Below are positions 1-45,262 of a stretch of DNA of 64,000 nucleotides, piece by piece. Position numbers and translations under genes: made by a program. The notes beneath the pieces were generated by a model. The model ran no database searches. It was not told the origin of the DNA and saw only the letters and a program-made list of their open reading frames with translations. The stretch comes from a virus (Duplodnaviria > Caudoviricetes), in IMG/VR virus record IMGVR_UViG_3300025875_000010, positions 13,292 through 77,291 of that record; one strand, written 5' to 3'. How positions within the stretch are numbered: the stretch's first letter is position 1; every line of letters starts with the position of its first letter.

Positions 1-37
1 TTCAATAAGCTCATCGAGAAGAAACTGCATCTCATCC

Positions 38-346
38 TTAGGCTCTTCTTCGTCCATCTGATTTCTTCTTTCTAATAAAGGCTGCTGTTGCAGCAAATCT
101 ATCTCCCCGCCCGCCGAGTCTGCGGTAGTATTCCTCAGCACCTCGATGGCACTTCGTACACAATGCTACCATATCTGAGAGGCGTTCGTTTCCCAACCGG
201 ACATATGTCATGTGATGCAATTGTATCGGGCCAATGGTTGTAGAGCAGGCCCTACAATAACGCCCGCGCGTGGAGAACCATAGCTCTCGCTTGGTTCTCC
301 ACGCGGGGGACTTTAAATATTGCGTATAGAAGGTTTTATCCTTCAC
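38..346 (-). CDS. HNH endonuclease-like protein
   Basis: CxxC (CRAC), QLHH, and CxxCH (LCTKCH) motifs in 102 aa. Confidence 0.75.
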   Translation of the reverse strand: MKDKTFYTQYLKSPAWRTKRELWFSTRGRYCRACSTTIGPIQLHHMTYVRLGNERLSDMVALCTKCHRGAEEYYRRLGGRGDRFAATAAFIRKKKSDGRRRA

Positions 347-1135
347 TTACCACTGCAACTCGCCAGATTCAGTTTTTGCACCAGTGATCTGATTACCGGT
401 CTCTACCGTTGCGACAACAGTGTCATCGTCAAGGGCATCACCGTCCTGATACACGGCACCGTAGTATCCGGGCTGCTCTTCGTAAGAAATCTTACGAAGA
501 ACCGCTTCCTCTAGGTCAATTACCTCCACGTCAATTGCATCATAGAGGTCAATACCCTTTGCCTCCTTGAGCTTCCATGCAGTCGACGTTCCGGTTCCGG
601 AACGAGTGATCCTCCACATCTTGTTCGTAATCTGGTTGTTATCGTCATCTTCCACCTCCTGAATTAAATCGTCAACGAATGACGAGTTAAAGCTGCGGGA
701 AATAACAACCGGCTTCACTCCCTCTCCGTCCTTGTAATCAACGAGGGCCCAGATATAAAAATTCCTCTTTTGACCCCAACCCTTTAGCTTCTTCTTGCCG
801 TCAACTACCGGCGCATTAAGCCTGTCGTCCGCGTGACGTTCGCATGCAAAACATGCACCTTCATCTGCGGTGCAGCTTGCCCTACGCTTGAAGCCTTCCT
901 TGCCGGGAGCCTGATGCTCTACCGCGCTAAGTGGAAGTCCATAATTAGGATCGTAACCCTCTACGCCCTCATCGAATTCCTGCAAGAAGCGAACAAACAC
1001 AACGTCCTTATCGTCCTTGCTCTTGTTATTCTTCCAGTTGAAATACTCTGCTCTTGGACGCTCGCGCGCCTCCTGCTCGGCCTTGATCTGTGCCTTTGTT
1101 GATTTAAATGCTGCAATACCTCTTGAAATTGCCAT
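347..1135 (-). CDS. ssb: single-stranded DNA-binding protein
   Basis: 262 aa, FVRFL..H..C..C phage gp32-like pattern, acidic C-terminal tail, next to primase, strong RBS AAGGAG. Confidence 0.75.
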   Translation of the reverse strand: MAISRGIAAFKSTKAQIKAEQEARERPRAEYFNWKNNKSKDDKDVVFVRFLQEFDEGVEGYDPNYGLPLSAVEHQAPGKEGFKRRASCTADEGACFACERHADDRLNAPVVDGKKKLKGWGQKRNFYIWALVDYKDGEGVKPVVISRSFNSSFVDDLIQEVEDDDNNQITNKMWRITRSGTGTSTAWKLKEAKGIDLYDAIDVEVIDLEEAVLRKISYEEQPGYYGAVYQDGDALDDDTVVATVETGNQITGAKTESGELQW

Positions 1136-25763: not shown

Positions 25764-28700
25764 TCAAACTGTGCGATTGACTGTAGCCTCAACAACACCA
25801 GCCTGTAGCTTAGCTCCAAGGGGACCATACGTATACAAACCAATATTATAATTACTACCCCAACGCTCACCGGCTGCCCAGTACGTCACACTAACTCCCG
25901 CATCATTAAGAACAGTGTATGCAGACTGACCGACAGCATTCCACTGGGCCGTAGCAGGCCAACCGATTTCACCAATAAGACCCTTTTGGTTGTGCGTAGC
26001 AAGCCATTCAGTAAAATCATTAAGCTCATCTATTACACGAGCAGATAGATTTGCATAACCACGATTGACCGCATCAGTATTTACCACATCATAAGATTCT
26101 GCGTAAACTCCATTATTAGCAGGATCAAAGTAATAATGAGCCTCGTATACGGTCTTATTGGCGGGATCAGTAATCCAAGGGTTACCGTTCTTTAGTGCCC
26201 ATTCTTTAGCTCCGCTCCAAGAATCACCGGCAATATAAATTATTCTGGTGTCACCAGTTCCTCTAATTGCAGTTACAGCAGCCTGGGAAGCAGACTTCCA
26301 CGGAGTCAACCCGGCGGCGCCCAAAGAGCCTTGAGCAAAATTATCAATATCAACAGTGTATGATGTTCCTGAAACAGCATCATTAGAGTCAATTTGAACC
26401 GCAAAAGCGTTAGACGTAAAGTCAGAATCATAGGTAGCCACGACGTTAACCGCAACTCCTGGAATTAACTGAGATACCGTTGCGCCCGTGTCTGCGCGCG
26501 TGTGTGTGATGTTAGGTGCTGTCACCCACTGGTAGCTAGAATTCTGATATTGTGGCATGGCTCTCCATACACCCGCTGTACCGGCTGCTAGTGTCACCTG
26601 AATAGAAAGTGATCTTCCTGTCAACGTGCCTCCCAGCTTTTGCCCAGCGTCATCACGACGAATTGCCAAGAATCCAGATGAAGATGCAGTTGCAACAAGA
26701 CGAAGTTTTCCGCTAGTACTACTTGCTGTTACTGTACCGCCACCGCCGGTCCATCCCTGAATACTGGTAGCCCAATCGTATCTTGTGGTGCCAGTAAACG
26801 CGCCAACGGGTGCGGGCGGAAGATCATGAGGCTCATTCATCAAACCCCATCCCACAATAGAAGTCTTACCAGCAAAACGCTGCTGCAACTTCGTCCACAC
26901 ATCAGCAAAATTTGCATCAGTCAAGCCTGCTCCAAACATAACCTCAGTATCATCAGTCTTTACAAATCGACCATAATTATGGAGATCAGGAATAACATAC
27001 AAGCCAGCAGCAGATGCTCTATCAATGGCATCTGATAGTTCTGTGATGCCTGGCTCAGACAACGCTCCACCGAGAACATTCTGTACTCTTTCCCAACGGA
27101 AAGGCATTCTTACTACCTTGTGACCTCTTGAATAGTAATAATCAAGGGATGCCCTAGAGTCATAAGAATAATCTGTGCTGTATACTCCCGGCAAAGAAAG
27201 TGGTTCATGAGCAAACTCTCCACCGGCTGAGTTAACTCCACGTAGAGTTACGGGAACGGCAGAAGCAGTTAAGGCAGCAGTTGCTGTTGCCTCTCCACCA
27301 ACGCCAACAGCTTTAAGTTCAATAGTTTGTCCTGCTGTCATCTGATACGAAGTTAACTGAGTATCAATCTCAACCCACGCACCGGCGTTTGCCCTGATGT
27401 AAAGCAAATCGGGCAATCCGGTTACCGTGAAGGTTACCAAACCAGAAGCGTTAATTTTTAGATTGTTAATTGTTGGTGGAAGAATTCTGTGAAACTTAGG
27501 CCAATAAATTCCCAGATTAGGAACATTGTTAGCATTGTCTACACAGCTTACAACTAACCCTGTACCGGCCAGACCGGGGTGAGCCTTGTAAGCATAAGTT
27601 GCCAATCCCGAAGCAACAGGCTTTTTGAAGTGGGCTGTATTCTCATAAGCTTCCCTCTCGGAATAAGCCTTAAGCGTACACTGAGCAACAGTCTTATCAG
27701 CAAACCCTCCACCCCAAAATGGAGTGTACTGAATGCGAAGAGTTCCGTTTGGATTAATGGATCTTATAACTGCATCATAACCAGGATCATCTTTAACGTG
27801 ATCGCCAATCTGAAAAGTTGGTGGTGGTGGTCTGTATCCACCGCCCGGAGCTACTACAAAATTACCATTGCCATCCTTGGCGCTAACTCGCACTCCACCG
27901 CGCATAAATGGGAAGCTTCCAACACAATCTACAATAACATACCGGCCGTCGGACCTTTTGTGTACACTCCCCTCAGAGGTGTCTGGATTCTCAGAAATTA
28001 CAAAACCTTGAATTGGATCTGTTGACCAACCTCCAAAACCATTGTAATATTCTATGTTTGCTTGTGTACCTATTCCGGTAAAGTTAGCTGTAGACCAACG
28101 GCACAAGACCCATCCACTGAATCTATTAATAGCAAATATATGAATGTAGCCACCTTCGATGGATGGGCTGAATACTGGACGGAAGCCAGTATCTCCACTA
28201 GCATAAAGCAATGTAGATACCCAAGTTGTAATATTAGTCGTCTTGGCATTTGGCACCCTGTGAACGCACCATCCCCACTCTCCACCTAACGGATTATTTG
28301 ATTGAACGCGCATAGAGAGAACATACAGGTCATTTCCAATAAACACTCCGTCCATCGGCCACGAATAATGTGTATCTGAAATTGGGAACCAACGCAAGCT
28401 AGGACTCGTTGCCTTGTAGAATGTTACCGTAGAAGTAGAAAGATCAGGACCAGACTGAATAGCTAAACTGTCGTTAGTCATAACTGATCCGTTACGATCT
28501 ACTGGAATTCCTGTTGCTGAATCTCTCCAATAGGTATCAGCAAACAGCCACAAAACCCGGCCGGTTCCATCATTAAACGGAATGCTTCTAGCAGAGTCTG
28601 CACCCAGCCATCTGCCAGTATTACCGGTCCTTGGATCAAACTTAATATCTAGATCAGGAGCAGGCTGAACATTATACGCTTGTGTGTGTGTGTACACCAT

Positions 28701-28787
28701 TTCATTACCGGCGAAAATTCTATCAATTCGATTAGCACCCGCTTTGAGTTTACCGAAAGTATTGCTGCCCATTTTAACTGTTGGCAT
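25764..28787 (-). CDS. multidomain virion-associated glycosidase: DUF4185/DUF5005-like propeller + GH5 catalytic domain with inserted beta-sandwich
   Basis: WLGADS..RVLWLFADT propeller motif; RMPFRWER, DLHNY, MNEPH, EAHYY, IGEIG GH5 motifs. Confidence 0.8.
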   Translation of the reverse strand: MPTVKMGSNTFGKLKAGANRIDRIFAGNEMVYTHTQAYNVQPAPDLDIKFDPRTGNTGRWLGADSARSIPFNDGTGRVLWLFADTYWRDSATGIPVDRNGSVMTNDSLAIQSGPDLSTSTVTFYKATSPSLRWFPISDTHYSWPMDGVFIGNDLYVLSMRVQSNNPLGGEWGWCVHRVPNAKTTNITTWVSTLLYASGDTGFRPVFSPSIEGGYIHIFAINRFSGWVLCRWSTANFTGIGTQANIEYYNGFGGWSTDPIQGFVISENPDTSEGSVHKRSDGRYVIVDCVGSFPFMRGGVRVSAKDGNGNFVVAPGGGYRPPPPTFQIGDHVKDDPGYDAVIRSINPNGTLRIQYTPFWGGGFADKTVAQCTLKAYSEREAYENTAHFKKPVASGLATYAYKAHPGLAGTGLVVSCVDNANNVPNLGIYWPKFHRILPPTINNLKINASGLVTFTVTGLPDLLYIRANAGAWVEIDTQLTSYQMTAGQTIELKAVGVGGEATATAALTASAVPVTLRGVNSAGGEFAHEPLSLPGVYSTDYSYDSRASLDYYYSRGHKVVRMPFRWERVQNVLGGALSEPGITELSDAIDRASAAGLYVIPDLHNYGRFVKTDDTEVMFGAGLTDANFADVWTKLQQRFAGKTSIVGWGLMNEPHDLPPAPVGAFTGTTRYDWATSIQGWTGGGGTVTASSTSGKLRLVATASSSGFLAIRRDDAGQKLGGTLTGRSLSIQVTLAAGTAGVWRAMPQYQNSSYQWVTAPNITHTRADTGATVSQLIPGVAVNVVATYDSDFTSNAFAVQIDSNDAVSGTSYTVDIDNFAQGSLGAAGLTPWKSASQAAVTAIRGTGDTRIIYIAGDSWSGAKEWALKNGNPWITDPANKTVYEAHYYFDPANNGVYAESYDVVNTDAVNRGYANLSARVIDELNDFTEWLATHNQKGLIGEIGWPATAQWNAVGQSAYTVLNDAGVSVTYWAAGERWGSNYNIGLYTYGPLGAKLQAGVVEATVNRTV

Positions 28788-28790
28788 ATG

Positions 28791-30014
28791 TCACCCCTGA
28801 ATCACATAAAGTGTTGTAGCTACCTTGGTTGCCAGGGCATCATAAGCGGACTGAGTAATTGATCTTACTTCTGTGATTCCTACTCCCGTAACCTTGGTGT
28901 CAACTAGCGGCTTAAGGCTAGCTGGTGTAACTGCTCTGAATTGCTCTGTACCGGTATTTGTCTCGGTGACAGAAGCCAATTCAATAATTCCAGCTACCGA
29001 TGTAGTAGCTGGGCGAACGGTTGGAGCCGTAGCTGTACCCGTTAGGTCACCGGCAAGTTGAATTAGACCCGGCGTTGTTGTAGTTGCATTTGGTGGGGTA
29101 TAATCTCCGGCTTTGGCTGTACCGGCTATAGTGCCAATCACCAAACTAGAAGTACCAGCGCCAATAGTAGTTCTAACTGTGGCCGCATCGACAGAAGTAA
29201 TGATGGTACGACCGATGGGTGTTGAGTCAGTAATATTAGCAGACGTAACTGTACCACCGGTTCCACCTCCTGGCGTTGACCATGTGCCATCACCTCGAAG
29301 ATATGTAGTTGCATCTCTTGTTCCTGTGGCTGTCAAATCAGTAACGACGTGAGTGTGAGCTAAAGGAGTTCTAGCATCACTAAGTCTCGAATCATTACCG
29401 GCCGCTGCCGTACCTGCCGTTGTACCAATAACAAGACTTGATGTTCCAGAGCCCGTAGCTGTACGCACAGCAGCAGCATCGACAGCAGTTAATATGGTTC
29501 TACCAATTGCTGTTGAATTGGAAATATCTGTCGCCGTATGAGTGTGAATAGTGTTTGCCTTACCAGCCAAACCGGGAACCGTTGGTGCTGCTGCTGTACC
29601 GGCCAAGTCACCGGCAAGTTGAATAATTCCCTTTGCTGTAGTTGTAGCGTCAGTACCCCCAGCACCCGTTTGCCCCTGGGGAATTCCTATGTTAAGAGTC
29701 TGATTCGGCGCGGCGCCCGTGATGGTCGCAGTTGCGCTAGCACCAGCAGCCAAAGTGCTTACCGTACCAATCGACAAAACATTAGTTGGGCCAGTTTCTC
29801 CGATAGCACCTCTAGGAATTCCTAGAGCAAGCGTGCGGGCGGAAGGAGTACCCCCTAATGTTACTGTGGGGGTAGCTCCCGCCGCTAACGCGCTAGCAGA
29901 GGCGCTGGTAATTGTACCGGCAGGTCCCTGCGAACCGGTAGGACCAGCATATCCAGGCACCTCAACGGTGATGACTTCAATGTCATCTGGGCTGTATGGA
30001 ATCGGCATGGTCAT
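28791..30014 (-). CDS. fibre protein with collagen-like and Thr/Ala repeats
   Basis: GPTGSQGPAG, LALGIPRG, repeated GIIQLAGDL and ISNSTAIGRTILTA; C-terminal SITQSAYDALATKVATTLYVI. Confidence 0.7.
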   Translation of the reverse strand: MTMPIPYSPDDIEVITVEVPGYAGPTGSQGPAGTITSASASALAAGATPTVTLGGTPSARTLALGIPRGAIGETGPTNVLSIGTVSTLAAGASATATITGAAPNQTLNIGIPQGQTGAGGTDATTTAKGIIQLAGDLAGTAAAPTVPGLAGKANTIHTHTATDISNSTAIGRTILTAVDAAAVRTATGSGTSSLVIGTTAGTAAAGNDSRLSDARTPLAHTHVVTDLTATGTRDATTYLRGDGTWSTPGGGTGGTVTSANITDSTPIGRTIITSVDAATVRTTIGAGTSSLVIGTIAGTAKAGDYTPPNATTTTPGLIQLAGDLTGTATAPTVRPATTSVAGIIELASVTETNTGTEQFRAVTPASLKPLVDTKVTGVGITEVRSITQSAYDALATKVATTLYVIQG

Positions 30015-30052: not shown

Positions 30053-33000
30053 TTATGAATAGGTCTTGCTATTAGTGTAGGCCACAACATTTGAGTTATT
30101 ATATGCTGTGAACTTTCTAGTAACAGCCGTTCCCGTATCAGTAATCTCAATAATGCTGTACTGCTCAACCGTTCCGCTAGATGGGCTTGGTCCCCAAGTC
30201 AATGTGTTAACCTTTTTCGAAGCACCCTGATGAAGAGGTGAAGAATGCATAACAGGAATACCAAGTGAATTGGTTCCATCGTCATATCCAACGGCGTGCA
30301 TATCACCAGCCAAAATTTCAACGTTCTTGCCGCTAGCCTTAATAAAGTTGGCTAGCTCAGTACGCTCTGTGTTGTAACTAGGCCACTCATCATCAGCATC
30401 AGAATAATTTGAGAATGGCTGATCATTTCCCCAAAAGATTAGAGGCTCCGTTGCAGCCGTAATCGTATTCTTAAACCAAGTCTTCTGCTCAGCACCCAAA
30501 ACAGTCTTTGAGCTATTGTCCGTAGCCGTTTGTACTGACTTGTAACTGCGGTTGTCGGTAACAATAAATCTAACTCTACCAATAACATACGTGTGATAGA
30601 TTCCACCAGTAGCCGATGGCAATGAGTAATGCGGTACGCGCTTACGATATGCAGACTGAGCATATGGCTTAACAGTCGCTCCGGTGCCGCCAGTTCCATA
30701 TGAATTGTTTGGACCGAAATCGTGATCACTCCACGTATAATCAAAAGCCATTTCCTTAAGCATTGGCCCAGAACCTGATGCGCTCAGCATTGTGTTAAAC
30801 TTATTGTGGTAATTAGTCTCAGATGCTGTTGCATTGTCCGCATAGTGAAAATCTCCAACAGACAAGAAGAAGAGTGGAGAGTGAGCCTTAATTCTACCAT
30901 AAGCTGCCGAAACACCATTTGCGTTGTCACATGAGGAAAAGGCAAACTTAAAGCTACTTGCGCCCTGAGGTGCTGTCCTCAAAGATTGAATCTTAGCTTT
31001 ATCAATACCGGACCCTAGCTGCATTGCATAGTAATACTTAGTATTAGGTGTTAAGCCTGTAATTGTAGACTTCACATAACCGGCGCTATCTGGTGTTGAG
31101 GTAGTGGCAGCTAGAATTGGATTAGACATATCCGCTGAGGTGCTGACAGCAAGCTTCGCGGAAGGAGCACCTGAAGCCGTAGCTGATGCAGTAAATCCTG
31201 TAGACGTTAAGCCACCAGCCCACATTGTAACAATTGAGCCCGTTGGGTTTCCTGTACTGGTCTGGTTATGATAAGGGTTGGTAACCCCTGTTGGTACCGG
31301 CCAACCGGTATGCCAGTGCCACAAATCTCTAATTTCTGTAGATGCATATTCCGTGGCAGAGGCACTTGTTTCATTGAATTGGTTATAGTTACCCACCTTT
31401 TGGTACCAACTTGAACTTCCAGTAGATACCAAAGCATTTGAAGTAGCTGCTGGTACATTCATATTATTGTAGTAAAATCTTGCTTCACCAGCAACTATTT
31501 CTAGCATGCCCTCAAACTCTGTATTAGGAACATAATTATCGGCAAATACTACAATCTGACTTCCATTAGCCCTACCGACCAAACGGCACGTTCCATCACC
31601 ATTGCTGGTTGTACGAATAGCAAGGCGCTCAGTGTCTCCATTATGAAGCTGAGCAATACATACCTCTGAATCATCCGGCGGAAGGTGTGTTACGCGCGCA
31701 CGGAAGTGTAGCTGATGAACACCACCATCTTTTGCATCGAAGCCCATGTTTGTCCCGTTCAAATCAAGCTCTCTCAATTCAGAGCGCGCGAAGCTAGAGC
31801 CTGATGTTGTTGGGCCGTCAGCCCTCGCCCAAAATTGCACTCTATTAATTCCACCACTATTAACAACCTTGAAGTAAGGATCTTCGTTGTAACCGGCGGC
31901 AATGTCAGCCTGAGTCTTTGTGACAAACGTACTTCCACCATTAGGTGCAACCTGAACAGAAAAATGATTTTTTCCAGGTGCTGTGCCAATATTCAAAACC
32001 GTAGCTGGTGTTCCCGTTGGTGTTGGAGCTGGATCAACGGGTGTGGTTGGTGTTGTCGTAATGGCCGGTGAATAAACAGACTCGATGGCCTTATTGAATA
32101 CCGTGGGCCAGCCCGTGTGCCAGTGCTCCAAATCTCTTACAATAACTCTAGAATATTCAGAAGGAAGATCCGATGTAGAGTTGCTTCTATTCTGAACACC
32201 AACCCTGAACGACCAAGAAGCTGATCCTGTAGAGAGCAAAGCTGTTGAAGTAATAATTGGATCTCTCATGCTACCGTAATAAATTCTAAGCTGTCCATCA
32301 ACAACTCGAATTGAAAACTCAAATTCTGCATTAAGAACCAGAGGGTCCATTAAGCGAGGTGTGACCAAAGAACCATTAATAAACGCTCCCAAAGATACCA
32401 CACCATTAGATAGATATGCTCTGATTGATGCTCGGTCTCCCGAACCATTATTAAGCTCTGCAATTACTGTCTCGGGGTTGTTAGGTGGAAGATGAACAAT
32501 TCTCATCTTACCTCGGATGTAATGTGTTCCTACAAATGGGTTAAAAGTATATACTGAGCCATTAGAATTAACTTCTTTTAACTCCGTTCCAGTGAAATTA
32601 GAACCGGGAAGCTTCGGACCATCCAGTCTAGCACTCATCTGAACACCTCTCGTTTCAGATGGTGCTAATCTATAGAAGTCTACACTAGACATTACTGGAC
32701 TTAAAAAGCCTAGAGCTTGACGAAGAAGGCCAACCTTTCTGGATACTACCGCATCCCTAGCCACGACAGACTTAGCTAGAAGTGCTAAATGATCAGACAT
32801 TAAGAAACAGTGCAAATCTGCAATATCTTCTGTTACATTATATCTTGCCCAATCGCTCATGTAACCGGCCGGGTGGTCACCAGTAAAGGATGCTCCAAAT
32901 GCAGAACCAGACGGGTTCTGTGCAGAAAAATTAGCCTGCATTGCAGCATCCCATACTGTATTAAGATAAATGGCAGCGTGCATGTACTCGTGATGGAACT

Positions 33001-34540
33001 GCTTTCTAAATACCCTATCTCCCCAACGAGAATCAAGAAAAATAGTTGTTGTTGCCGCAGACCAAATGCTTGCTCCTGGACTGTTCATGTAACTAACACC
33101 ATCAGTAATGGCTACTGTTGACAACGGTGTTGATTGGACTCCCGCTGATGGATACTTGGCAACTTCCTGCACAAGAGCGCCAACCCTATTCTTAATGGTT
33201 TCCAAATCAGTCAGTGCCGTCCAAGAAATATTTTCTACATTAGAGCCTGTGGCCGGAACGGTCACATTGAATCCATATGTTGCTTCAATTGGATCAAGAG
33301 CAGCTAGAACACCGTCTAAGCTGGTTGCCGCATTAACTGCCGAAATAATAGAAAATGTATTGTAGTACCTCTTAGCTGGTTCATGATACGAAGCATCAAA
33401 GTATGGAGATAATGCAAATCCCGCACTAACCTCAGAGCCTGTCTTGATAACGGGCGCACTTAAGCCATCTCTTGACATTGCCAATGAGAAGTGATTCATT
33501 CCATCCAATGGATCAAGATGTAGTAGCTGAGCTGGAGATGCAGAAATATGCTTGGCATGATCTACCGGACGAATTCTACCGTTGCCATAAATTCCCAAAA
33601 CCTGCAAGGGCACCATGGCACCATTTCGCCAAATATAAAAATCTGTTTCAGTTACAGTTCCACTTAATGAAGTCCGAATAGTTTGAGCCGCTGATTCTGC
33701 TGAGCGGTTTCCTGCGGCGTCCACAGCAGATACCGTGTAGCTATACGCAGTGTTGGCTGACAAACCAGTGTCAACGTAGGTCCTATTGGTTAGTGCTGGG
33801 GCAATAGTAACCCCGTTGCGCTGAACCCTATATGAAGCTACACCTACATTATCAGTGCTAGCATTCCATGAAATGCTAGTGCTAGTTGGATCGTTTGCAA
33901 ATAAAATAATTCCGGAAGGCACGGTTGGTGCGGTCGTATCAACCTCGGGGGCAGCGGAAAGATCGGTAGAAGCAAATCTGGCAATTCTTAAGCTGGGTGC
34001 TGTAGTTCCGCTGGAATAAACTCCCACGCCTCGCTGAGTGGCTGGCACTGCACCAGAAGCATCTTGAGCCTGAACAACTAGAACATCATTAACATAGCCA
34101 CGAAGGATAACGGCACTAGATGTTTCTTCAACTTCTAGCTTCATCTTTAATCCTTCGATCCTAGAATCGGTAGGAGTATTTCCACTTCCTAGCATGGTCA
34201 TCGTAGTGCTGTTGGCTTCCTTGCGACGAATGGAAAACGCTGTTCCCGTACTTCCAGTCAAAAAGAATCCATAAAAAGCTTCGGTATTAGAATTAGAAGT
34301 TCCCAATTCTGGGAGGCGAACACAAGGCCCAGTGAAGCTTCCACCGTAAGTGTTTCCCATCTGAAAAGCAGATGAATGATTTCCTGTAGCCATAACAACC
34401 GGTGCGCGCTCAACATATGTATTTGTACCGGGCGGAACTATCGCACCCGACTTAAGGAGCATGCGGCTAGAATAGCCAGTCCAACCGTTTCCAGGTGAAC
34501 TGGCGTCGCCCCTATCAAACTCGTCATTAAAAACTGTCAT
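30053..34540 (-). CDS. giant multi-enzyme protein: FN3 + two PL7-like lyase domains + HExxH peptidase insert + PhoD-like alkaline phosphatase
   Basis: RSELRE/AQLH/YQKVGNYNQ (PL7); HHEYMH; FSSC, GDFHYAD, WSDHDF, TDNRSY, GDMH (PhoD). Confidence 0.8.
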   Translation of the reverse strand: MTVFNDEFDRGDASSPGNGWTGYSSRMLLKSGAIVPPGTNTYVERAPVVMATGNHSSAFQMGNTYGGSFTGPCVRLPELGTSNSNTEAFYGFFLTGSTGTAFSIRRKEANSTTMTMLGSGNTPTDSRIEGLKMKLEVEETSSAVILRGYVNDVLVVQAQDASGAVPATQRGVGVYSSGTTAPSLRIARFASTDLSAAPEVDTTAPTVPSGIILFANDPTSTSISWNASTDNVGVASYRVQRNGVTIAPALTNRTYVDTGLSANTAYSYTVSAVDAAGNRSAESAAQTIRTSLSGTVTETDFYIWRNGAMVPLQVLGIYGNGRIRPVDHAKHISASPAQLLHLDPLDGMNHFSLAMSRDGLSAPVIKTGSEVSAGFALSPYFDASYHEPAKRYYNTFSIISAVNAATSLDGVLAALDPIEATYGFNVTVPATGSNVENISWTALTDLETIKNRVGALVQEVAKYPSAGVQSTPLSTVAITDGVSYMNSPGASIWSAATTTIFLDSRWGDRVFRKQFHHEYMHAAIYLNTVWDAAMQANFSAQNPSGSAFGASFTGDHPAGYMSDWARYNVTEDIADLHCFLMSDHLALLAKSVVARDAVVSRKVGLLRQALGFLSPVMSSVDFYRLAPSETRGVQMSARLDGPKLPGSNFTGTELKEVNSNGSVYTFNPFVGTHYIRGKMRIVHLPPNNPETVIAELNNGSGDRASIRAYLSNGVVSLGAFINGSLVTPRLMDPLVLNAEFEFSIRVVDGQLRIYYGSMRDPIITSTALLSTGSASWSFRVGVQNRSNSTSDLPSEYSRVIVRDLEHWHTGWPTVFNKAIESVYSPAITTTPTTPVDPAPTPTGTPATVLNIGTAPGKNHFSVQVAPNGGSTFVTKTQADIAAGYNEDPYFKVVNSGGINRVQFWARADGPTTSGSSFARSELRELDLNGTNMGFDAKDGGVHQLHFRARVTHLPPDDSEVCIAQLHNGDTERLAIRTTSNGDGTCRLVGRANGSQIVVFADNYVPNTEFEGMLEIVAGEARFYYNNMNVPAATSNALVSTGSSSWYQKVGNYNQFNETSASATEYASTEIRDLWHWHTGWPVPTGVTNPYHNQTSTGNPTGSIVTMWAGGLTSTGFTASATASGAPSAKLAVSTSADMSNPILAATTSTPDSAGYVKSTITGLTPNTKYYYAMQLGSGIDKAKIQSLRTAPQGASSFKFAFSSCDNANGVSAAYGRIKAHSPLFFLSVGDFHYADNATASETNYHNKFNTMLSASGSGPMLKEMAFDYTWSDHDFGPNNSYGTGGTGATVKPYAQSAYRKRVPHYSLPSATGGIYHTYVIGRVRFIVTDNRSYKSVQTATDNSSKTVLGAEQKTWFKNTITAATEPLIFWGNDQPFSNYSDADDEWPSYNTERTELANFIKASGKNVEILAGDMHAVGYDDGTNSLGIPVMHSSPLHQGASKKVNTLTWGPSPSSGTVEQYSIIEITDTGTAVTRKFTAYNNSNVVAYTNSKTYS

Positions 34541-36567
34541 TACGTCTCCTTAAAAATTATTGTGCCTTCTGGTGTTCCTGCTGGGGGAGAACTATCTGCT
34601 GGGCCTAGGACTACAAAACCATTTGAAGTTCCACTATTTCCTCCAACCTTCTTTCCGTCTACCGGCGAAGTCGGCTTGCCTAGCTTAATTCTCAAGTCCC
34701 CATCTGGATCGACCCATAAGTGATACTGACCAATCATAGGATGAACTGAGCTGTATTCGGACTGGAATGGTGGAACTACCGGAACCTTTACACCATTGAT
34801 CGTAATATATCCAAAGGAGTAAGTTACTGCATCGGACGGTGCCTGGATTGTAGCAGAGGCAGTTACAATATTTGATGACAATGTACCAGAAGTAACCCAC
34901 GCCCTAATCGTACGTGGAGTCGTCTCTTCCACTGAATTATACACATATGTTCCATTGGCTGAGGCCGTGTCATTGATTGTACCATCTCCCCAATCAACAT
35001 GATAAACCAAGGGAGTATTATTTGGATCGAACGATCCATCAAAACTGTAGGTAACCTCTAATGGGCCAACTCCTACTGTTGGAATTGGGCTTAAAATCTT
35101 AAAGGCCAATACCGGAGCACCATCAGGAGCAATAATAGTTCCTGTTGACTTGGTTGCCGTAGAAGTTAATCCATTGGCATCTGTTGTCGTAACACTAATA
35201 TCAAATGATCTAGCCACTGTAATAGGATAAGTGTGACTTGCGGTCTTGGTTGGTTCATTTACCTGCTGAACCGATGAACCATCACCCCAGTTAATCTTAT
35301 GGTTAGCCATAGCATTTGTACCGGCCGTTGATGTAACTGTAACGGTAGCGGTCTGTGCGTTTACGGAAACGTTAAAGTTCGCTACCGGAGGATTTATAGT
35401 GACAACCGGATCGGGAGTAGTGCCGCCGGGTGAGGTGACTGTTCCAGCAACCTTTCCCCAAGTGCCGTTTCCGCTAACTAACCAATCTCCCCATCGAGGG
35501 AGAAGTCTTCTAGCGTTGCGCTCTGACACCTGACTAGGAACCGGCCAATTAAGACCAGGGTATAGGTGATTAGCCACCCAAGGCTGAATGTGCATCCACT
35601 TATTGAATTCAGGTTCAGCGGGCAGCCATAGAGGCACATTCGATAGGTTCAGGTTGTCGCGCATGAAAAGAATGTTTCTCTTGATTGCTGAGTTTACCCA
35701 ACTAGCTGCGTCAGCATATCCTGCATTAACTAGAATTGGAATAAGAACTAGCGCACCATCGATGCACTCATACTGGTAGTGAATTCCGTCACCGGTTCTC
35801 AATGGTGGCCCCCCAGAACGGGATGCGTCTTCTACGTTTGCACCAGATAGAACCTTATTTGCAACCTCGGCATTAATTACACCCTGTGAGCTTGGGTAGG
35901 TTGCCACGTCCCAACCAGAATTGAAAGATCCAGTAGCAATGAAGGTATTTTGAATAGTAGTATCTCCCAACCAGCGCTTGTAGAATCTAATCATTTCATC
36001 CAGAGTTCCTTGTACCGTAGTAGGCGCTCCCGATGGAACACCGGCCAAAGTAGTGATGCCGTGCTTTTTTAAATACAGCAAAATGATGATAGAAGATACA
36101 CGAGCGCATGCTCCCCAGTTGTTACCCGAAGTCTTACCACATTTGTATAATGAATTCCAGTTGGCCTGACCTGGCATCGTTGCATGAATTGCATAACGCC
36201 CCCATTCTACCATCGTATTACGAGGGGCAGACTTTCCTGTGCTACGATGTGGGTCCATTCCTACAAGGTCGGCAGCCAAGAAGTAAACCCCCCAGGTGCG
36301 GTATGGATTTAACGGTTGATCGGTAGTAAGTTCAGTACCCATAGCCTCGATAATTTCAGATTCGACTTTAGCCTTGCCTAGACCGCCGCCGTCCTTGGAA
36401 TATCTGATTGCAATATCCAATACATTCTGAGGGTGCAATTGGTCAACAACACCCATGTTTGCTGCGCCCGGATCGGCATTAGACTTTGAGGCCAATGAGG
36501 TCCAAGCTCCACCGCTGGTTGGCAATGAAGCTAGCGTTGTTTCCTTATATAGTAGATAATCTGGCAT
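34540..36567 (-). CDS. putative polysaccharide lyase-like protein with PKD domains
   Basis: N-terminal NNW...IHYQY pattern; two PKD-like WGDG motifs; tailspike-like GQYHLWVDPDGDLRIKLGKPTS C-terminus. Confidence 0.55.
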   Translation of the reverse strand: MPDYLLYKETTLASLPTSGGAWTSLASKSNADPGAANMGVVDQLHPQNVLDIAIRYSKDGGGLGKAKVESEIIEAMGTELTTDQPLNPYRTWGVYFLAADLVGMDPHRSTGKSAPRNTMVEWGRYAIHATMPGQANWNSLYKCGKTSGNNWGACARVSSIIILLYLKKHGITTLAGVPSGAPTTVQGTLDEMIRFYKRWLGDTTIQNTFIATGSFNSGWDVATYPSSQGVINAEVANKVLSGANVEDASRSGGPPLRTGDGIHYQYECIDGALVLIPILVNAGYADAASWVNSAIKRNILFMRDNLNLSNVPLWLPAEPEFNKWMHIQPWVANHLYPGLNWPVPSQVSERNARRLLPRWGDWLVSGNGTWGKVAGTVTSPGGTTPDPVVTINPPVANFNVSVNAQTATVTVTSTAGTNAMANHKINWGDGSSVQQVNEPTKTASHTYPITVARSFDISVTTTDANGLTSTATKSTGTIIAPDGAPVLAFKILSPIPTVGVGPLEVTYSFDGSFDPNNTPLVYHVDWGDGTINDTASANGTYVYNSVEETTPRTIRAWVTSGTLSSNIVTASATIQAPSDAVTYSFGYITINGVKVPVVPPFQSEYSSVHPMIGQYHLWVDPDGDLRIKLGKPTSPVDGKKVGGNSGTSNGFVVLGPADSSPPAGTPEGTIIFKET

Positions 36568-36579
36568 CTGTCATTCTCC

Positions 36580-37362
36580 TTAAATTTCTGTTACTATCAT
36601 ATAAACTTGTGTTCCATCAGGTAGATTGGCTACGTCTGGATTAATTCCATAAACCGCGCCGCCACCCCCACCACCAGGCTGCGTTGACATTTCATCAATT
36701 CTCGAACTAAGAACATTTTGAATATTGTCAATGTAAATCTTTGGAGCCACTTGACGATCAGTTACAGGATCATTATCTATATGAATCTGACCAATGGTAA
36801 ACGTATTATCTGTGGCTCTTTTTACTAATGTTCCTCCACCGCTAACGCTAGTCGCAGCAGTCAAATCGGAATGGGTGTGATTACCTGCTGCCGCTGTCGC
36901 ACTTGTGGTACCCAAAACAACTGCCCCAATAATTGCTCTTACTGCCGGGGCATCTGCTGCGGTTAAAATACTTCTACCGGTTACAGACGAATCTGTAATG
37001 TTTGTTGAAATAACTGCTCCGGCTGATCCGGCATCACCGCGAGGAATAGTTAAATTGAGAGAGTAATTTGGAGCGCTGCCCGTTATGGTGGCTGTAGCAT
37101 TACTTCCCGGCGCTCCGGTAGAAACCGTACCGATTGTCATTGCTGCTGCTGGACCCGCAACTCCCGGATCACCCTTTGGAAGAACTAGATTAAGCGTTTG
37201 GTTTGGTGCCGTGCCAGTAATAGTTGCCGATGCACTTGCACCACCAGCGACTGTTCCTATTGTAAGAGTGTTTGAGAGACCATTTGGTCCTGGGTCTCCT
37301 CTAGGCCCTACTGGACCCGGAGCGCCTGGTAATTCTATTGTTATTACCTGCGCTGGCATCAA
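36580..37362 (-). CDS. collagen-like fibre protein
   Basis: GPVGPRGDPGP, LNLVLPKG, LNLTIPRG repeats; paralogous to 28791..30014. Confidence 0.7.
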   Translation of the reverse strand: MMPAQVITIELPGAPGPVGPRGDPGPNGLSNTLTIGTVAGGASASATITGTAPNQTLNLVLPKGDPGVAGPAAAMTIGTVSTGAPGSNATATITGSAPNYSLNLTIPRGDAGSAGAVISTNITDSSVTGRSILTAADAPAVRAIIGAVVLGTTSATAAAGNHTHSDLTAATSVSGGGTLVKRATDNTFTIGQIHIDNDPVTDRQVAPKIYIDNIQNVLSSRIDEMSTQPGGGGGGAVYGINPDVANLPDGTQVYMIVTEI

Positions 37363-43705: not shown

Positions 43706-45262
43706 TTAGCTTTGTCCAGGTATAAATGACCAAGTTTGCGCATAGAATGAAACTGGTGAAGATGATTCTGTCACATTCACTCCAGAACTATCATTAACTC
43801 TTAGAATTGGTGACCCTACATTAGACTTATATAAATTAAGAGCTTGTGCAGCCGTCATCTCATAATCATAGGTAGCTAAATGACCAACGGTTACATCAAG
43901 CATTTCTGTACCGGTCAAATTACCACCAATTCGAAACTTGCTGTCATTAGGAGTAGTAAGAACAAAAATCCAATGAGCCCACTGATCCAATTGTTGCGCT
44001 GTCGCGCTTGTGAAGGGCTGTCCATTTCTGTAAGCAGTCATTCCTACGGCTGAAACATTGCCGCCATCTACTTTGACATAACTAGTTCCAGTATTTCCAA
44101 TAAAAAAGCCAGAATTATCATCAAGCTTGGCCCACATTTCAACTGTGCCAATAGTGTTGGCTTCATCCTGTTGAATTTCCAAGTAACCATTTCTAATAAC
44201 AGCGCCCCAGGTGCTCAGATAGTCTAATGGATTAGGTGTTTCATAATCCATTAGAACAGATTTAAATGCCAAATTTCTCGAACCACTAGTTGGCGTTATT
44301 AATCTATCGTTAAGTATCAACACAGTTAACGAATCAACCCATCCTTCTTCTGGAAGATCAAACCTTAATAGCAAGTTAACATCTGTAGCGTCCTCTAAAA
44401 CAATGGCTCCATTCATTACCGGAGTCCATGTAATATTATCAGTAGAATACGAAAGAACAGCTTTAAATCCTTGATAAGTTAAAGACACACCGGCAATCGT
44501 ATCGGATATCATCGATGATACTGGCACCATGCCCATCCACGTTCCGCCGCCATCGTTGGCTATCATTCTAGTTCCCATAATACCAACACCACTTGTAAAG
44601 AACTGATCCCAATTTGTATAGTCAAAAACAACAGTAGAATAAATGTCAGAGTCTCGATTCATCAACGTCCATGTTGTAGCTCCATTGGCAGATGCCGTCT
44701 GCTCGGGGGCTCTTACGGCCTTACCCCACTCGTAGTGCTGGCCTACTTCTCTTGCAGACAAACCTCTAGCATAGAGCGCAACGCTATCATAAATAGCAGA
44801 CCCCGTACCACCATTAATTCGAATTGAACCTGAGGTAGAAGTAAAGGGAGATAAAAGTAAATCTAAAGATGCTACCAAGGTTGCATCAATATATAGCTCG
44901 GCCTGCGTAGGGCGATAAATCATAGCCACATAAAAAGACTTACTATTGTTAGGAGTCCATGATGTTTCTACCGTACCGGCATCTTGCTTTATCCTTAAAA
45001 TGAAGTCTGTTCCATTCCAAAGCACGCCCTCTCCAGTATGACCAAGTACAACAACTTCACCGGTATTTGTCATCGGCATAAACCAAGCTTCAAGTGTAAA
45101 AGAAATCGCTTCGTATCCCTGATTGTAAGGCTCAAAACTAATGTTATCTGATGCACTGATAAGTGTTGATGATCCTGAACCGGCCACTAACGGCGGGTTC
45201 GATCCATCCAACGTACGAAACGTATGCGGATTACTACTCATCACTTCTAACTCGTAGTTCAT
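43706..45262 (-). CDS. LamG/concanavalin-like domain protein
   Basis: FTLEAWF, LYIDATLV, YDSVALYARGLSAREVGQHY; second LamG-like repeat at C-terminus. Confidence 0.75.
   Translation of the reverse strand: MNYELEVMSSNPHTFRTLDGSNPPLVAGSGSSTLISASDNISFEPYNQGYEAISFTLEAWFMPMTNTGEVVVLGHTGEGVLWNGTDFILRIKQDAGTVETSWTPNNSKSFYVAMIYRPTQAELYIDATLVASLDLLLSPFTSTSGSIRINGGTGSAIYDSVALYARGLSAREVGQHYEWGKAVRAPEQTASANGATTWTLMNRDSDIYSTVVFDYTNWDQFFTSGVGIMGTRMIANDGGGTWMGMVPVSSMISDTIAGVSLTYQGFKAVLSYSTDNITWTPVMNGAIVLEDATDVNLLLRFDLPEEGWVDSLTVLILNDRLITPTSGSRNLAFKSVLMDYETPNPLDYLSTWGAVIRNGYLEIQQDEANTIGTVEMWAKLDDNSGFFIGNTGTSYVKVDGGNVSAVGMTAYRNGQPFTSATAQQLDQWAHWIFVLTTPNDSKFRIGGNLTGTEMLDVTVGHLATYDYEMTAAQALNLYKSNVGSPILRVNDSSGVNVTESSSPVSFYAQTWSFIPGQS

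What the first reader, a model, noticed from the sequence alone, without database searches (positions are those of the whole stretch)
30053..34540. 1495-aa chimera: FN3, duplicated PL7-like lyase, metallopeptidase and PhoD phosphatase
Seen: the second lyase copy (~31320-31980) retains the three PL7 signature motifs (RSELRE, AQLH, YQKVGNYNQ). The first copy has them degenerate (GTELKE, AELN, FRVGVQN), suggesting a binding-only module. An HHEYMH zincin motif lies at ~32975-32995. The C-terminal ~400 aa show PhoD motifs (FSSC, GDFHYAD, WSDHDF, TDNRSY, GDMH). Known: PL7 enzymes are alginate/polyuronate lyases and PhoD is a phosphate-scavenging phosphatase. Inference: a lyase, protease and phosphatase fused in one putative virion protein is not an architecture I recognise.
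Basis: partly seen in the sequence, partly recalled or inferred. Interest (0 to 1): 0.82.

Follow-up and report, generated by a model that had tools for sequence, protein, structure and literature searches.

The report
Phage multi-enzyme cell-wall polymer cutter
An uncultured relative of large Streptomyces phages encodes one real 1,495-residue protein that strings together a dead and a live sugar-acid lyase, a zinc-peptidase-like domain inserted inside the dead lyase, and a PhoD-type phosphodiesterase, most likely to cut through the acidic, phosphate-linked polymers of its host's cell wall.

Summary
Window 30053-34540 (- strand) is one intact 1,495-aa gene with a strong ribosome-binding site. 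It sits in the structural operon of an IMG/VR phage whose capsid protein is 66-69% identical to Streptomyces BK-cluster phages.

- FN3.
- Two PL7 lyase domains: the first has lost all catalytic residues, the second keeps them.
- A zincin domain (HHExxH plus ED), a distant relative of Peptidase_Mx1.
- A PhoD phosphodiesterase with its metal ligands kept.

New here: the zincin is inserted inside the dead PL7 jelly roll. An unassigned 195-aa N-terminal domain plus FN3 recurs as small stand-alone proteins.

No full-length homologue exists, but every sub-combination recurs elsewhere. These include tandem PL7, N-domain+FN3+zincin, FN3+PhoD, and PhoD+PL7 in a minor-tail protein of another uncultured phage.

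Best reading: a modular depolymerase for anionic wall polymers (teichuronic/teichoic type), either carried on the virion or released at lysis. It is a new variant of a known kind. Virion attachment, substrates and activity are inferred, not shown.

The parts
30053..34540 (-). Whole gene, 1,495 aa (P0001), stop codon included
   Evidence: open frame, AAGGAG SD, TAATG overlap with the upstream ORF; even composition and codon usage along the ORF
33956..34540 (-). N-terminal domain, residues 1-195, no family assigned; possibly a jelly-roll or lectin-like module (lead only)
   Evidence: No Pfam or PDB sequence hit. Three metagenome homologues of 377-443 aa (46-55% id) made of this domain plus FN3, one cluster named 'predicted phage tail protein' by JGI. 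P0082 has it followed by FN3 and the zincin. Atlas feature hits to jelly-roll-type families are leads only
33662..33952 (-). Fibronectin type III domain, residues 197-293
   Evidence: Pfam fn3 29.2 bits; PDB 8PN5 and 1K85 FN3 domains, E 1e-13 to 1e-15; phrog_1696 FN3 part
33548..33655 (-). Short segment, residues 296-331, equivalent to the C-terminal end of the small N-domain+FN3 proteins
   Evidence: Alignment A6: FYIWRNGAMVPLQVLG aligns with the last ~35 residues of P0270 and P0271
33386..33544 (-). PL7a-N: first strands of the inactive PL7 jelly roll, residues 333-385 (LLHLDPLDGMNHF...SPYF)
   Evidence: Aligns with the N-extension 'LNIGxxxGxNHF..Q...PYF' of the PL7 subfamily. My PL7 HMM hits 346-385 at E 4e-5. 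AF2 pLDDT is 83-95 here
32663..33385 (-). Zincin domain inserted in PL7a, residues 386-626; HHEYMH 516-521, E571-D572
   Evidence: 121 homologues. HHExxH and ED are invariant or nearly so. 41 of 49 homologues hit PF15890 Peptidase_Mx1. AF2 pLDDT 89.8. Best PDB match is 4L7A, a putative Zn metallopeptidase, followed by M34-type gluzincins
32096..32662 (-). PL7a-C: remainder of the inactive PL7 domain, residues 627-815; GTELKE, AELN and SFRVG replace RSELRE, AQLH and YFKAG
   Evidence: Pfam PF08787 E 2.4e-7; PDB 1UAI E 5e-9. Together with PL7a-N it superposes on 5ZQI at Z 30.8, rmsd 1.6 A, 214 of 216 residues
32009..32095 (-). Pro/Thr-rich linker, residues 816-844
   Evidence: Read directly from the sequence
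31286..32008 (-). PL7b: predicted active PL7 lyase domain, residues 845-1085; R919, R923, Q964, H966, Y1046 present
   Evidence: Pfam E 5e-22; PDB 1UAI E 6.5e-17 and 5ZQI; subfamily alignment A2
30971..31258 (-). PhoD_N / purple-acid-phosphatase N-terminal FN3-like domain, residues 1095-1190
   Evidence: PF16655 and PF16656, E 1e-4 to 6.5e-5, below the gathering score; aligned with the N-domain of 2YEQ
30056..30970 (-). PhoD-type metallophosphodiesterase domain, residues 1191-1495; C1204, GDFHY 1229-1233, WSDHD 1270-1274, N1278, D1329/R1331, D1413/H1415
   Evidence: PF09423 69.5 bits; phrog_13624 'hydrolase' E 2.7e-72; 2YEQ E 1e-11, with Cys-180, Asn-272 and Asp-436 equivalents conserved; invariant in the phage subfamily

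Best explanation
The gene encodes a modular enzyme of an actinobacterial (Streptomyces-type) siphophage that degrades cell-envelope polymers. It is made late with the structural proteins, and it acts either on the virion or after release at lysis.

Proposed parts list:
- The N-domain and FN3 form a carrier or attachment part. The same pair exists elsewhere as small stand-alone proteins.
- PL7b cleaves a 4-linked uronic-acid polymer by beta-elimination.
- PL7a has lost its catalytic residues and serves as a carbohydrate-binding module for the same polymer.
- The PhoD domain hydrolyses phosphodiester bonds of teichoic-acid-type chains or linkage units.
- The zincin inserted in PL7a adds a third, possibly peptidase, activity of unknown substrate.

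The most likely joint target is an anionic wall glycopolymer with both uronic-acid and polyol-phosphate parts, such as the teichuronic acid-wall teichoic acid hybrid described in Streptomyces.

Shown here: the gene, the domains, their order, the split domain, which catalytic residues are kept or lost, and the recurrence of the modules in phage tail-type proteins. Inferred: the activities, the substrates, the host and attachment to the virion.
For: Gene and setting:
- The gene is real, has an SD site and overlaps the stop codon of the upstream ORF, and shares orientation with portal, protease, capsid, adaptor, tape measure and minor tail genes.
- The phage is a relative of Streptomyces BK-cluster phages: capsid protein 66-69% identical, with a syntenic head-to-tail module.

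Domains:
- PL7b keeps every residue that is invariant or nearly so in its subfamily; PL7a alone has lost them.
- A colinear tandem-PL7 protein (P0140, 37% id, E 6e-94) has both copies intact.
- The PhoD ligands named for B. subtilis PhoD (Cys-180, Asn-272, Asp-436) and the family motifs are kept.
- B. subtilis PhoD is a phosphodiesterase whose proposed role is release of phosphate from wall teichoic acid (PMC4223295).
- The zincin motif and fold are supported.
- The split PL7a is supported by alignment and by the AF2 model.

The same PL7 subfamily sits in phage tail-type multi-enzyme proteins:
- L004: PL7 + pectate-lyase beta-helix 'minor tail protein'.
- L005: fibre-tail adaptor Gp77 + Ig + GH5 + PL7.
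- L013: GH46 + PL7 + GH16 + chondroitinase B.

PhoD relatives were found at 36 viral loci. In the seven large PhoD proteins scanned for partner domains, the partners were:
- minor-tail or tail families in L022, L042 and L047,
- PL7 in L047,
- GH16 in L017,
- FN3 in L016.

Other support:
- Tail-borne phosphodiesterases of another fold (GDPD) that are thought to attack teichoic acid are known in enterococcal phages (PMC10194240).
- Streptomyces carries a teichuronic acid with a 4-linked ManNAc3NAcA unit attached to wall teichoic acid (bioRxiv 10.1101/2025.04.24.650519).
- The N-terminus is not hydrophobic, so there is no signal peptide. That fits a virion protein or one released at lysis.
Against: - No activity, substrate or virion proteomics data exist.
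- The gene lies between the capsid gene and the head-tail adaptor, not in the tail-tip region. This 11.6-kb five-gene cassette is absent from the closest cultured relative, Muntaha, which has two small unrelated genes there.
- The N-terminal domain has no detectable link to any known virion-anchoring domain and no homologue in 50,697 phage records.
- In BE-cluster Streptomyces phages the PhoD-type 'hydrolase' is a stand-alone gene among tRNAs, outside the structural genes.
- The host is inferred only from relatedness to cultured phages. The window has 46% GC, against 49-53% in the compared regions of those phages.
- The zincin is only a distant relative of Peptidase_Mx1 (direct hit E 0.15), and that family has no known substrate.
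- PL7 enzymes with solved structures act on alginate or glucuronan, not on teichuronic acids.
Confidence: 0.6

Rival explanations
1. A soluble receptor-destroying or debris-clearing enzyme. The protein is not part of the particle. It is made late and released when the cell bursts, then strips wall polymers from lysed hyphae and neighbouring cells. Progeny are then not trapped on dead material, or the colony matrix is opened. The enzymology is the same as in the best explanation; only the location differs.
For: - There is no recognisable virion-anchor domain and no signal peptide.
- The gene lies in a variable cassette that the nearest cultured relative lacks.
- Stand-alone PhoD-type genes lie outside the structural modules of BE-cluster phages.
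- Earlier scan notes on other genomes describe signal-less PL7 enzymes next to lysis genes (e1-3581638 and e1-3283357; unchecked here).
Against: - The gene's start codon overlaps the stop of the upstream ORF, inside the head-to-tail structural operon and between two collagen-like fibre genes.
- The same PL7 and PhoD modules sit in proteins that carry minor-tail or fibre-adaptor domains in other phages.
- The N-domain+FN3 part exists as small proteins that JGI calls 'predicted phage tail protein', an automatic name.
Confidence: 0.25
2. The PhoD domain is an auxiliary metabolic module that frees phosphate for phage DNA synthesis, as the family name suggests. The fusion to the lyases would then serve nutrient release from polymers rather than entry.
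For: - PhoD is a Pho-regulon phosphate-scavenging enzyme family (PMC4223295).
- Cyanophages carry a related gene annotated as alkaline phosphatase D (H1-H3).
- BE-cluster phages hold it among non-structural genes.
Against: - An enzyme without a signal peptide that is made late cannot feed DNA replication earlier in the same infection.
- The domain is fused to polymer-cleaving and binding modules inside a structural operon.
- In other phages it is fused to minor-tail domains.
- The NCBIfam PhoD equivalog score is 41.7 against a cut-off of 1000, so this is not an orthologue of the scavenging enzyme.
Confidence: 0.05
3. All or most enzyme domains are inactive and the protein is mainly a multivalent adhesin. 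It would be a decoration or fibre that binds wall polymers through dead or near-dead enzyme folds.
For: - PL7a is clearly dead.
- In L047 the PhoD domain has lost several metal-ligand motifs while its PL7 is intact, which shows that these modules can turn into binders.
- FN3 and the unassigned N-domain are typical non-catalytic modules.
Against: PL7b, the PhoD domain and the zincin each keep the complete catalytic or metal-binding set of their families, which is not expected under neutral decay.
Confidence: 0.08

Closest known systems
PL7 polysaccharide lyases with solved structures: ALY-1 of Corynebacterium sp. (PDB 1UAI), AlgAT5 (5ZQI), A1-II' (2CWS)
   Same: Both PL7 copies have the beta-jelly-roll fold (Z 27-31). 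PL7b keeps the R-x-E-x-R, Q-x-H and Y-x-K-x-G boxes.
   Different: - It belongs to a metagenome and actinophage subfamily with its own N-extension (LNIGxxxGxNHF) and C-terminal HWHTGWP motif.
- It is in tandem, with one dead copy that is interrupted by a 240-aa zincin.
- The substrate is very unlikely to be alginate if the host is a Streptomyces-type actinobacterium (host inferred only).
Bacillus subtilis PhoD (PDB 2YEQ) and Streptomyces chromofuscus phospholipase D, PhoD family PF09423
   Same: The PhoD_N plus metallophosphatase core is present. Equivalents of the Cys Fe ligand, the GDxxY motif, Asn-272 and Asp-436 are conserved.
   Different: - No Tat signal peptide and no C-terminal cap helix.
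- Only E 1e-11 to 2YEQ, and far below the NCBIfam equivalog cut-off.
- It belongs to a phage subfamily (phrog_13624) and is fused to lyases.
Uncultured-phage minor tail protein at L047:6088-10668 (IMGVR_UViG_3300036393_000024), and the PL7+PhoD tail proteins noted earlier by this scan (e1-3581639)
   Same: One phage protein carries both a PhoD-type domain and a PL7 domain of the same HW(H)(T/S)G(W/Y)P subfamily.
   Different: - The order is reversed (PhoD, then PL7).
- The N-terminal part is a recognised minor-tail family (phrog_1885).
- The PhoD motifs are degenerate there.
- There is a single PL7 and no zincin.
- Identity is only 28-29%.
Virion-associated depolymerases and tail-associated lysins, e.g. 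phi29 gp12 appendages (own knowledge) and GDPD phosphodiesterase domains in enterococcal phage tail modules (PMC10194240)
   Same: The logic is the same: enzymes carried by or made with the particle remove wall or capsule polymers, teichoic acids included, to reach the cell surface.
   Different: - The folds differ: PhoD metallophosphatase instead of GDPD or beta-helix, and a PL7 jelly roll instead of a trimeric beta-helix.
- Three catalytic modules are in one chain.
- The gene lies in the head-neck region, not at the tail tip.
- Attachment to the virion is not shown.
Peptidase_Mx1 / Peptidase_Mx (PF15890, PF15887; structure 4L7A, BACCAC_01431)
   Same: It has HHExxH plus a downstream ED(x)AE. 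41 of 49 of its sequence homologues are Pfam members, and 4L7A is the best fold match.
   Different: - The direct Pfam score is below threshold (11.8 against 25.6 bits), and the TM-score is only 0.44-0.46.
- Here the domain is inserted into another domain.
- The family has no characterised substrate.

Membership tests
PL7 polysaccharide lyase (PF08787), copy 2 (res 845-1085) | Profile match above the gathering score | tested here: met
   E 5e-22, 79.3 bits against a cut-off of 29.7 for the domain alone; 1UAI E 6.5e-17
PL7 polysaccharide lyase (PF08787), copy 2 (res 845-1085) | Catalytic set: Arg/Arg of R-x-E-x-R, Gln and His of Q-x-H, Tyr of Y-x-K-x-G | tested here: met
   R919, R923, Q964, H966, Y1046 and K1048 align with the invariant or nearly invariant columns of 19 subfamily members and with 1UAI
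PL7 polysaccharide lyase (PF08787), copy 2 (res 845-1085) | Beta-elimination activity on a uronic-acid polymer | not testable with these tools
   Needs an enzyme assay
PL7 polysaccharide lyase, copy 1 (res 333-385 + 627-815) | PL7 jelly-roll fold | tested here: met
   AF2 model superposed by VIA-align on 5ZQI: Z 30.8, rmsd 1.6 A, 214 of 216 residues over model 9..486 with the insert trimmed. Pfam 31.2 bits against 29.7 for the C-part alone. Caveat: the alignment given to AF2 already placed the two pieces this way
PL7 polysaccharide lyase, copy 1 (res 333-385 + 627-815) | Catalytic set R, R, Q, H, Y | tested here: not met
   The residues are G651, K655, E695, N697 and S778 instead. It has the fold of the family but is not predicted to be a lyase
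PhoD family (PF09423) | Profile match above the gathering score | tested here: met
   69.5 bits against a cut-off of 27; 2YEQ E 1e-11
PhoD family (PF09423) | Metal ligands of B. subtilis PhoD named in PMC4223295 (Cys-180, Asn-272, Asp-436) and the Tyr-bearing GDxxY motif | tested here: met
   C1204, N1278 and D1413 align with them. GDFHY 1229-1233 aligns with GDYIYEY, but the exact Tyr equivalence is ambiguous because of a 2-residue gap
Alkaline phosphatase PhoD equivalog (NCBIfam NF058638) | Score above the equivalog cut-off | tested here: not met
   41.7 bits against a cut-off of 1000. It is a family member, not an orthologue of the scavenging enzyme
Peptidase_Mx1 (PF15890) zincin | Profile match above the gathering score | tested here: not met
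   E 0.15, 11.8 bits against a cut-off of 25.6
Peptidase_Mx1 (PF15890) zincin | HExxH zinc motif plus a downstream acidic ligand, and a zincin fold | tested here: met
   H517, E518, H521, E571 and D572 lie at columns that are invariant or nearly so (at least 90%) across the homologue alignments (121 rows, 50 rows). 41 of 49 homologues are PF15890 members. AF2 pLDDT is 89.8; the best PDB hit is 4L7A (E 1e-4), followed by M34 gluzincins
Fibronectin type III (PF00041) | Profile match above the gathering score | tested here: met
   29.2 bits against a cut-off of 25; PDB FN3 domains E 1e-13 to 1e-15
Virion-associated depolymerase / tail fibre | A domain that anchors the protein to the particle, or detection in virions | tested here: inconclusive
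   No match of residues 1-200 to any PHROG, Pfam family or phage record. The gene sits in the structural operon. The modules occur in minor-tail proteins elsewhere. No proteomics data exist

The most novel reading that the evidence does not exclude
The protein is a virion-displayed, three-activity 'wall-polymer drill'. It would be carried in the head-neck region by a fibre cassette and matched to the hybrid teichuronic acid-teichoic acid polymer of Streptomyces. The PL7 lyase would cut the uronic-acid glycan. A PhoD-type metallophosphodiesterase, a fold not described on any characterised phage particle, would cut the phosphodiester chain. A zincin that evolved as an insertion inside a dead lyase domain would use that dead domain as its substrate-binding platform.
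Probability: 0.2. Interest if true: 0.75.

Novelty: new variant of a known kind. Interest (0 to 1): 0.55.

Why it matters
How phages get through the wall polymers of Streptomyces and other actinobacteria is almost unstudied.

- A lyase paired with a PhoD-type phosphodiesterase recurs in unrelated uncultured phages. That points to a specific class of target: anionic polymers with both uronic-acid and phosphodiester parts, like the recently described TUA-WTA hybrid.
- It also offers ready-made enzymes to probe or strip such polymers.
- The zincin inserted into a dead PL7 domain is a clear example of domain insertion and of an enzyme turned into a binding module.
- The protein as a whole shows how these phages assemble depolymerases by shuffling a small set of modules.
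- If the cassette proves to sit on the head or neck, that would be an unusual place for depolymerases.

Tried and rejected
- **Assembly chimera:** rejected. GC (0.42-0.49), GC3 (0.32-0.39) and codon usage are even across the domains and similar to neighbouring genes. The relatives of these modules found in IMG/VR mostly have 53-71% GC, so the modules have long since adapted to this genome.
- **Full-length relatives:** none found in the 5.8-billion-cluster search, IMG/VR pattern scans or tblastn of 50,697 phage records. The N-domain, and the zincin+PL7 region, gave no tblastn hit in phage records.
- **Context of the N-domain+FN3 small proteins:** Scans of IMG/VR and of the metagenome contigs with alignment A6 found nothing. 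A second metagenome scan with P0273 returned only FN3 matches.
- **N-domain identity:** Pfam, PDB sequence profiles and PHROGs gave nothing. The Atlas gave only feature-level leads to jelly-roll families.
- **Mixed alignment for AF2:** a mixed PL7+zincin alignment (A5) misaligned the zincin rows, so it was not used. A PL7-only alignment (A7) was used instead, and the insert is therefore poorly modelled in that run.
- **Promoter and terminator scan of 24.5-40 kb:** counts were at background level, so it says nothing about transcription units.
- **Fibre gene o407 against phage records:** only two weak partial hits, which does not help place the cassette.
- **Literature:** searches found no paper describing a PhoD-type domain or this PL7 subfamily on a phage particle. 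The library does not hold most subscription journals.

Full report
**1. The gene and its setting**

Window 30053-34540 on the minus strand is a single open frame of 1,495 codons. Its ATG overlaps the stop codon of the upstream 675-aa ORF (TAATG) and follows an AAGGAG site.

The window belongs to a 77-kb IMG/VR virus record that CheckV rates about 60% complete. On the same strand lie genes for:
- portal protein, prohead protease and major capsid protein,
- head-tail adaptor, major tail protein and a 2,169-aa tape measure protein,
- minor tail proteins.

The capsid protein is 66-69% identical to those of Streptomyces BK-cluster phages such as Muntaha and Comrade (Stanwilliamsviridae). The head-to-tail module is syntenic with Muntaha.

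The target is one of five genes, about 11.6 kb in all:
- a 260-aa collagen-like fibre,
- a 675-aa protein,
- the target,
- a 407-aa fibre,
- a 1,007-aa GH5 protein.

These lie between the second small gene after the capsid gene and the head-tail adaptor. Muntaha has two unrelated small genes at that position. GC, GC3 and codon usage are even along the ORF and similar to the neighbours, so nothing suggests an assembly chimera.

**2. Domains**

Pfam finds PL7 (two stretches), PhoD, fn3 and, weakly, PhoD_N. PHROGs finds the phage 'hydrolase' family phrog_13624 over residues 1095-1486 (E 2.7e-72), and an FN3 part of a tail protein family.

*The two PL7 copies.*
- They are 43% identical to each other (E 1e-46).
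- In alignments with 1UAI and with 17 metagenome homologues of the same subfamily, copy 2 keeps R919, R923, Q964, H966, Y1046 and K1048.
- Copy 1 has G, K, E, N, S and R at those columns, and it is the only row that departs.
- The subfamily has its own N-extension (LNIGxxxGxNHF..Q...PYF) and a C-terminal HWHTGWP motif.

*The PhoD domain.* It aligns with B. subtilis PhoD (2YEQ, E 1e-11). C1204, N1278 and D1413 fall at the positions of Cys-180, Asn-272 and Asp-436, the ligands named in PMC4223295. The GDxxY, WxDH(D/E), DxR, DxW and GDxH motifs are invariant among nine large relatives.

**3. The HEXXH region is a real zincin, inserted inside PL7 copy 1**

- A full HMMER search of 1.8 billion representatives with residues 295-650 gave 121 relatives covering residues 390-626.
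- HHExxH and a downstream ED(x)AE are invariant or nearly so.
- 41 of 49 relatives are Pfam Peptidase_Mx1 members. The query itself scores below threshold.
- An AF2 model (pLDDT 89.8) matches best the putative zinc peptidase 4L7A, then M34-type gluzincins.

Residues 333-385 (LLHLDPLDGMNHFSLAMS...SPYF) align with the N-extension of the PL7 subfamily, and my PL7 HMM hits them (E 4e-5).

An AF2 model of residues 325-835, made with PL7 homologues only, gives pLDDT 83-96 for both flanking pieces. With the insert trimmed, it superposes on complete PL7 structures: 5ZQI at Z 30.8, rmsd 1.6 A, 214 of 216 residues, across model residues 9..486. The C-piece alone has about 185 residues, so the N-piece must supply the missing strands. 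One caveat applies: the alignment supplied to AF2 already placed the pieces this way.

This agrees with the reading of another first-stage note on the same stretch (e1-5895248).

**4. A mosaic of recurring modules**

No protein shares the whole architecture, but each block recurs:
- **N-domain + FN3.** Residues 1-331 correspond end to end to small proteins of 377-443 aa made of N-domain plus one or two FN3 domains. One cluster is named 'predicted phage tail protein' by JGI, an automatic name.
- **N-domain + FN3 + zincin.** P0082 has these in the same order, without PL7.
- **Tandem PL7.** P0140 is a tandem PL7 colinear with residues 623-1088, with both copies intact.
- **FN3 + PhoD.** P0002 and L016 have this combination.

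In IMG/VR, the PL7 subfamily occurs at 11 loci, among them:
- L004: PL7 + a pectate-lyase-type 'minor tail protein'.
- L005: fibre-tail adaptor Gp77 + Ig + GH5 + PL7.
- L013: GH46 + PL7 + GH16 + chondroitinase B.

PhoD relatives occur at 36 viral loci in ORFs of 394-1,845 aa. Some are fused to minor-tail or tail families (L022, L042, L047) or to GH16 (L017). L047 carries minor tail + PhoD + PL7 in one 1,526-aa protein, with the PhoD motifs degenerate and the PL7 intact.

Of the 47 viral loci scanned with my HMMs, only L047 has the pair in one ORF, and none has the zincin. An earlier report of this scan on another genome (e1-3581639) says the PL7+PhoD pair recurs in about 30 phage proteins. I confirmed one independent case only.

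**5. How it most likely works**

The parts fit a depolymerase for anionic wall polymers.
- PL7 enzymes cleave 4-linked uronic acids by beta-elimination (established for the family).
- B. subtilis PhoD is a phosphodiesterase whose proposed role is to release phosphate from wall teichoic acid, and the authors suggest specialist roles for other family members (PMC4223295).
- Streptomyces carries teichuronic acid with a 4-linked ManNAc3NAcA unit attached to wall teichoic acid, a species-variable receptor (bioRxiv 10.1101/2025.04.24.650519).
- Tail-module phosphodiesterases of the unrelated GDPD fold are already thought to attack teichoic acids in enterococcal phages (PMC10194240).

I therefore propose the following division of labour:
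- PL7b cuts the uronic-acid part.
- PhoD cuts the phosphodiester part.
- Dead PL7a binds the polymer.
- The zincin adds an activity of unknown substrate.

All of this is inference.

Whether the protein rides on the particle is open.
- *For:* operon position, the start-stop overlap with the upstream ORF, flanking fibre genes, and the tail-protein context of the modules elsewhere.
- *Against:* no recognisable anchor, an unusual head-neck location, absence of the cassette from the nearest cultured relative, and a stand-alone non-structural PhoD-type gene in BE-cluster phages.

**6. Verdict**

The kind is known: a phage-encoded polymer-degrading multi-domain protein. This specific chain is not. 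In particular, the zincin inserted in a dead PL7 and the PhoD-type phosphodiesterase are not described for any characterised phage in the literature I could search. I rate it a new variant of a known kind, of moderate interest.

Noticed in passing
window 25764-28787 (-): A 1,007-aa protein with a GH5 cellulase domain (Pfam E 9e-33) ends the same cassette. In another uncultured phage (L005), GH5 and the same PL7 subfamily sit in one protein behind a fibre-tail adaptor (Gp77) domain, so GH5 and PL7 also look like recurring partners.
   Followed up: partly
window 36580-37362 (-) and 28791-30014 (-): Two collagen-like fibre genes (260 and 407 aa) share an N-terminal 180 aa at 37% identity. Both match PHROGs 'head fiber protein' (phrog_5711) and 'tail protein' (phrog_21962). 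They bracket the enzyme genes of the cassette, and the 407-aa one ends in a Phage_tail_C tip domain.
   Followed up: partly
window 34540-36567 (-): The 675-aa ORF whose stop codon overlaps the target's start has no family apart from a weak PKD domain (residues 504-544). Its function is unknown.
   Followed up: no
window 43706-45262 (-): A 518-aa protein with a Laminin_G_3 / ConA-like domain lies just upstream of the portal gene. It is weakly related (24% id) to the 811-aa hypothetical protein at the same place in phage Muntaha.
   Followed up: no
L013:6048-11087 and L014:5476-10515: A 1,679-aa protein of an uncultured high-GC phage joins GH46 (chitosanase), PL7, GH16 and a chondroitinase B-type (PL6) domain: four polymer-cleaving modules in one chain.
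   Followed up: no
L047:6088-10668: In this minor tail + PhoD + PL7 protein the PhoD motifs are degenerate: FGSS for FSSC, LSAHE for WSDHD, EGGAH for AGDMH. The PL7 boxes are intact. This is the mirror image of the target's dead-PL7/live-PhoD arrangement.
   Followed up: partly
L003 (Streptomyces phage Samisti12, record 79503-81458): The PhoD-type 'hydrolase' of BE-cluster phages (651 aa) is a stand-alone gene in the tRNA-rich non-structural region. The same enzyme family is therefore deployed in different genomic settings within Stanwilliamsviridae.
   Followed up: partly
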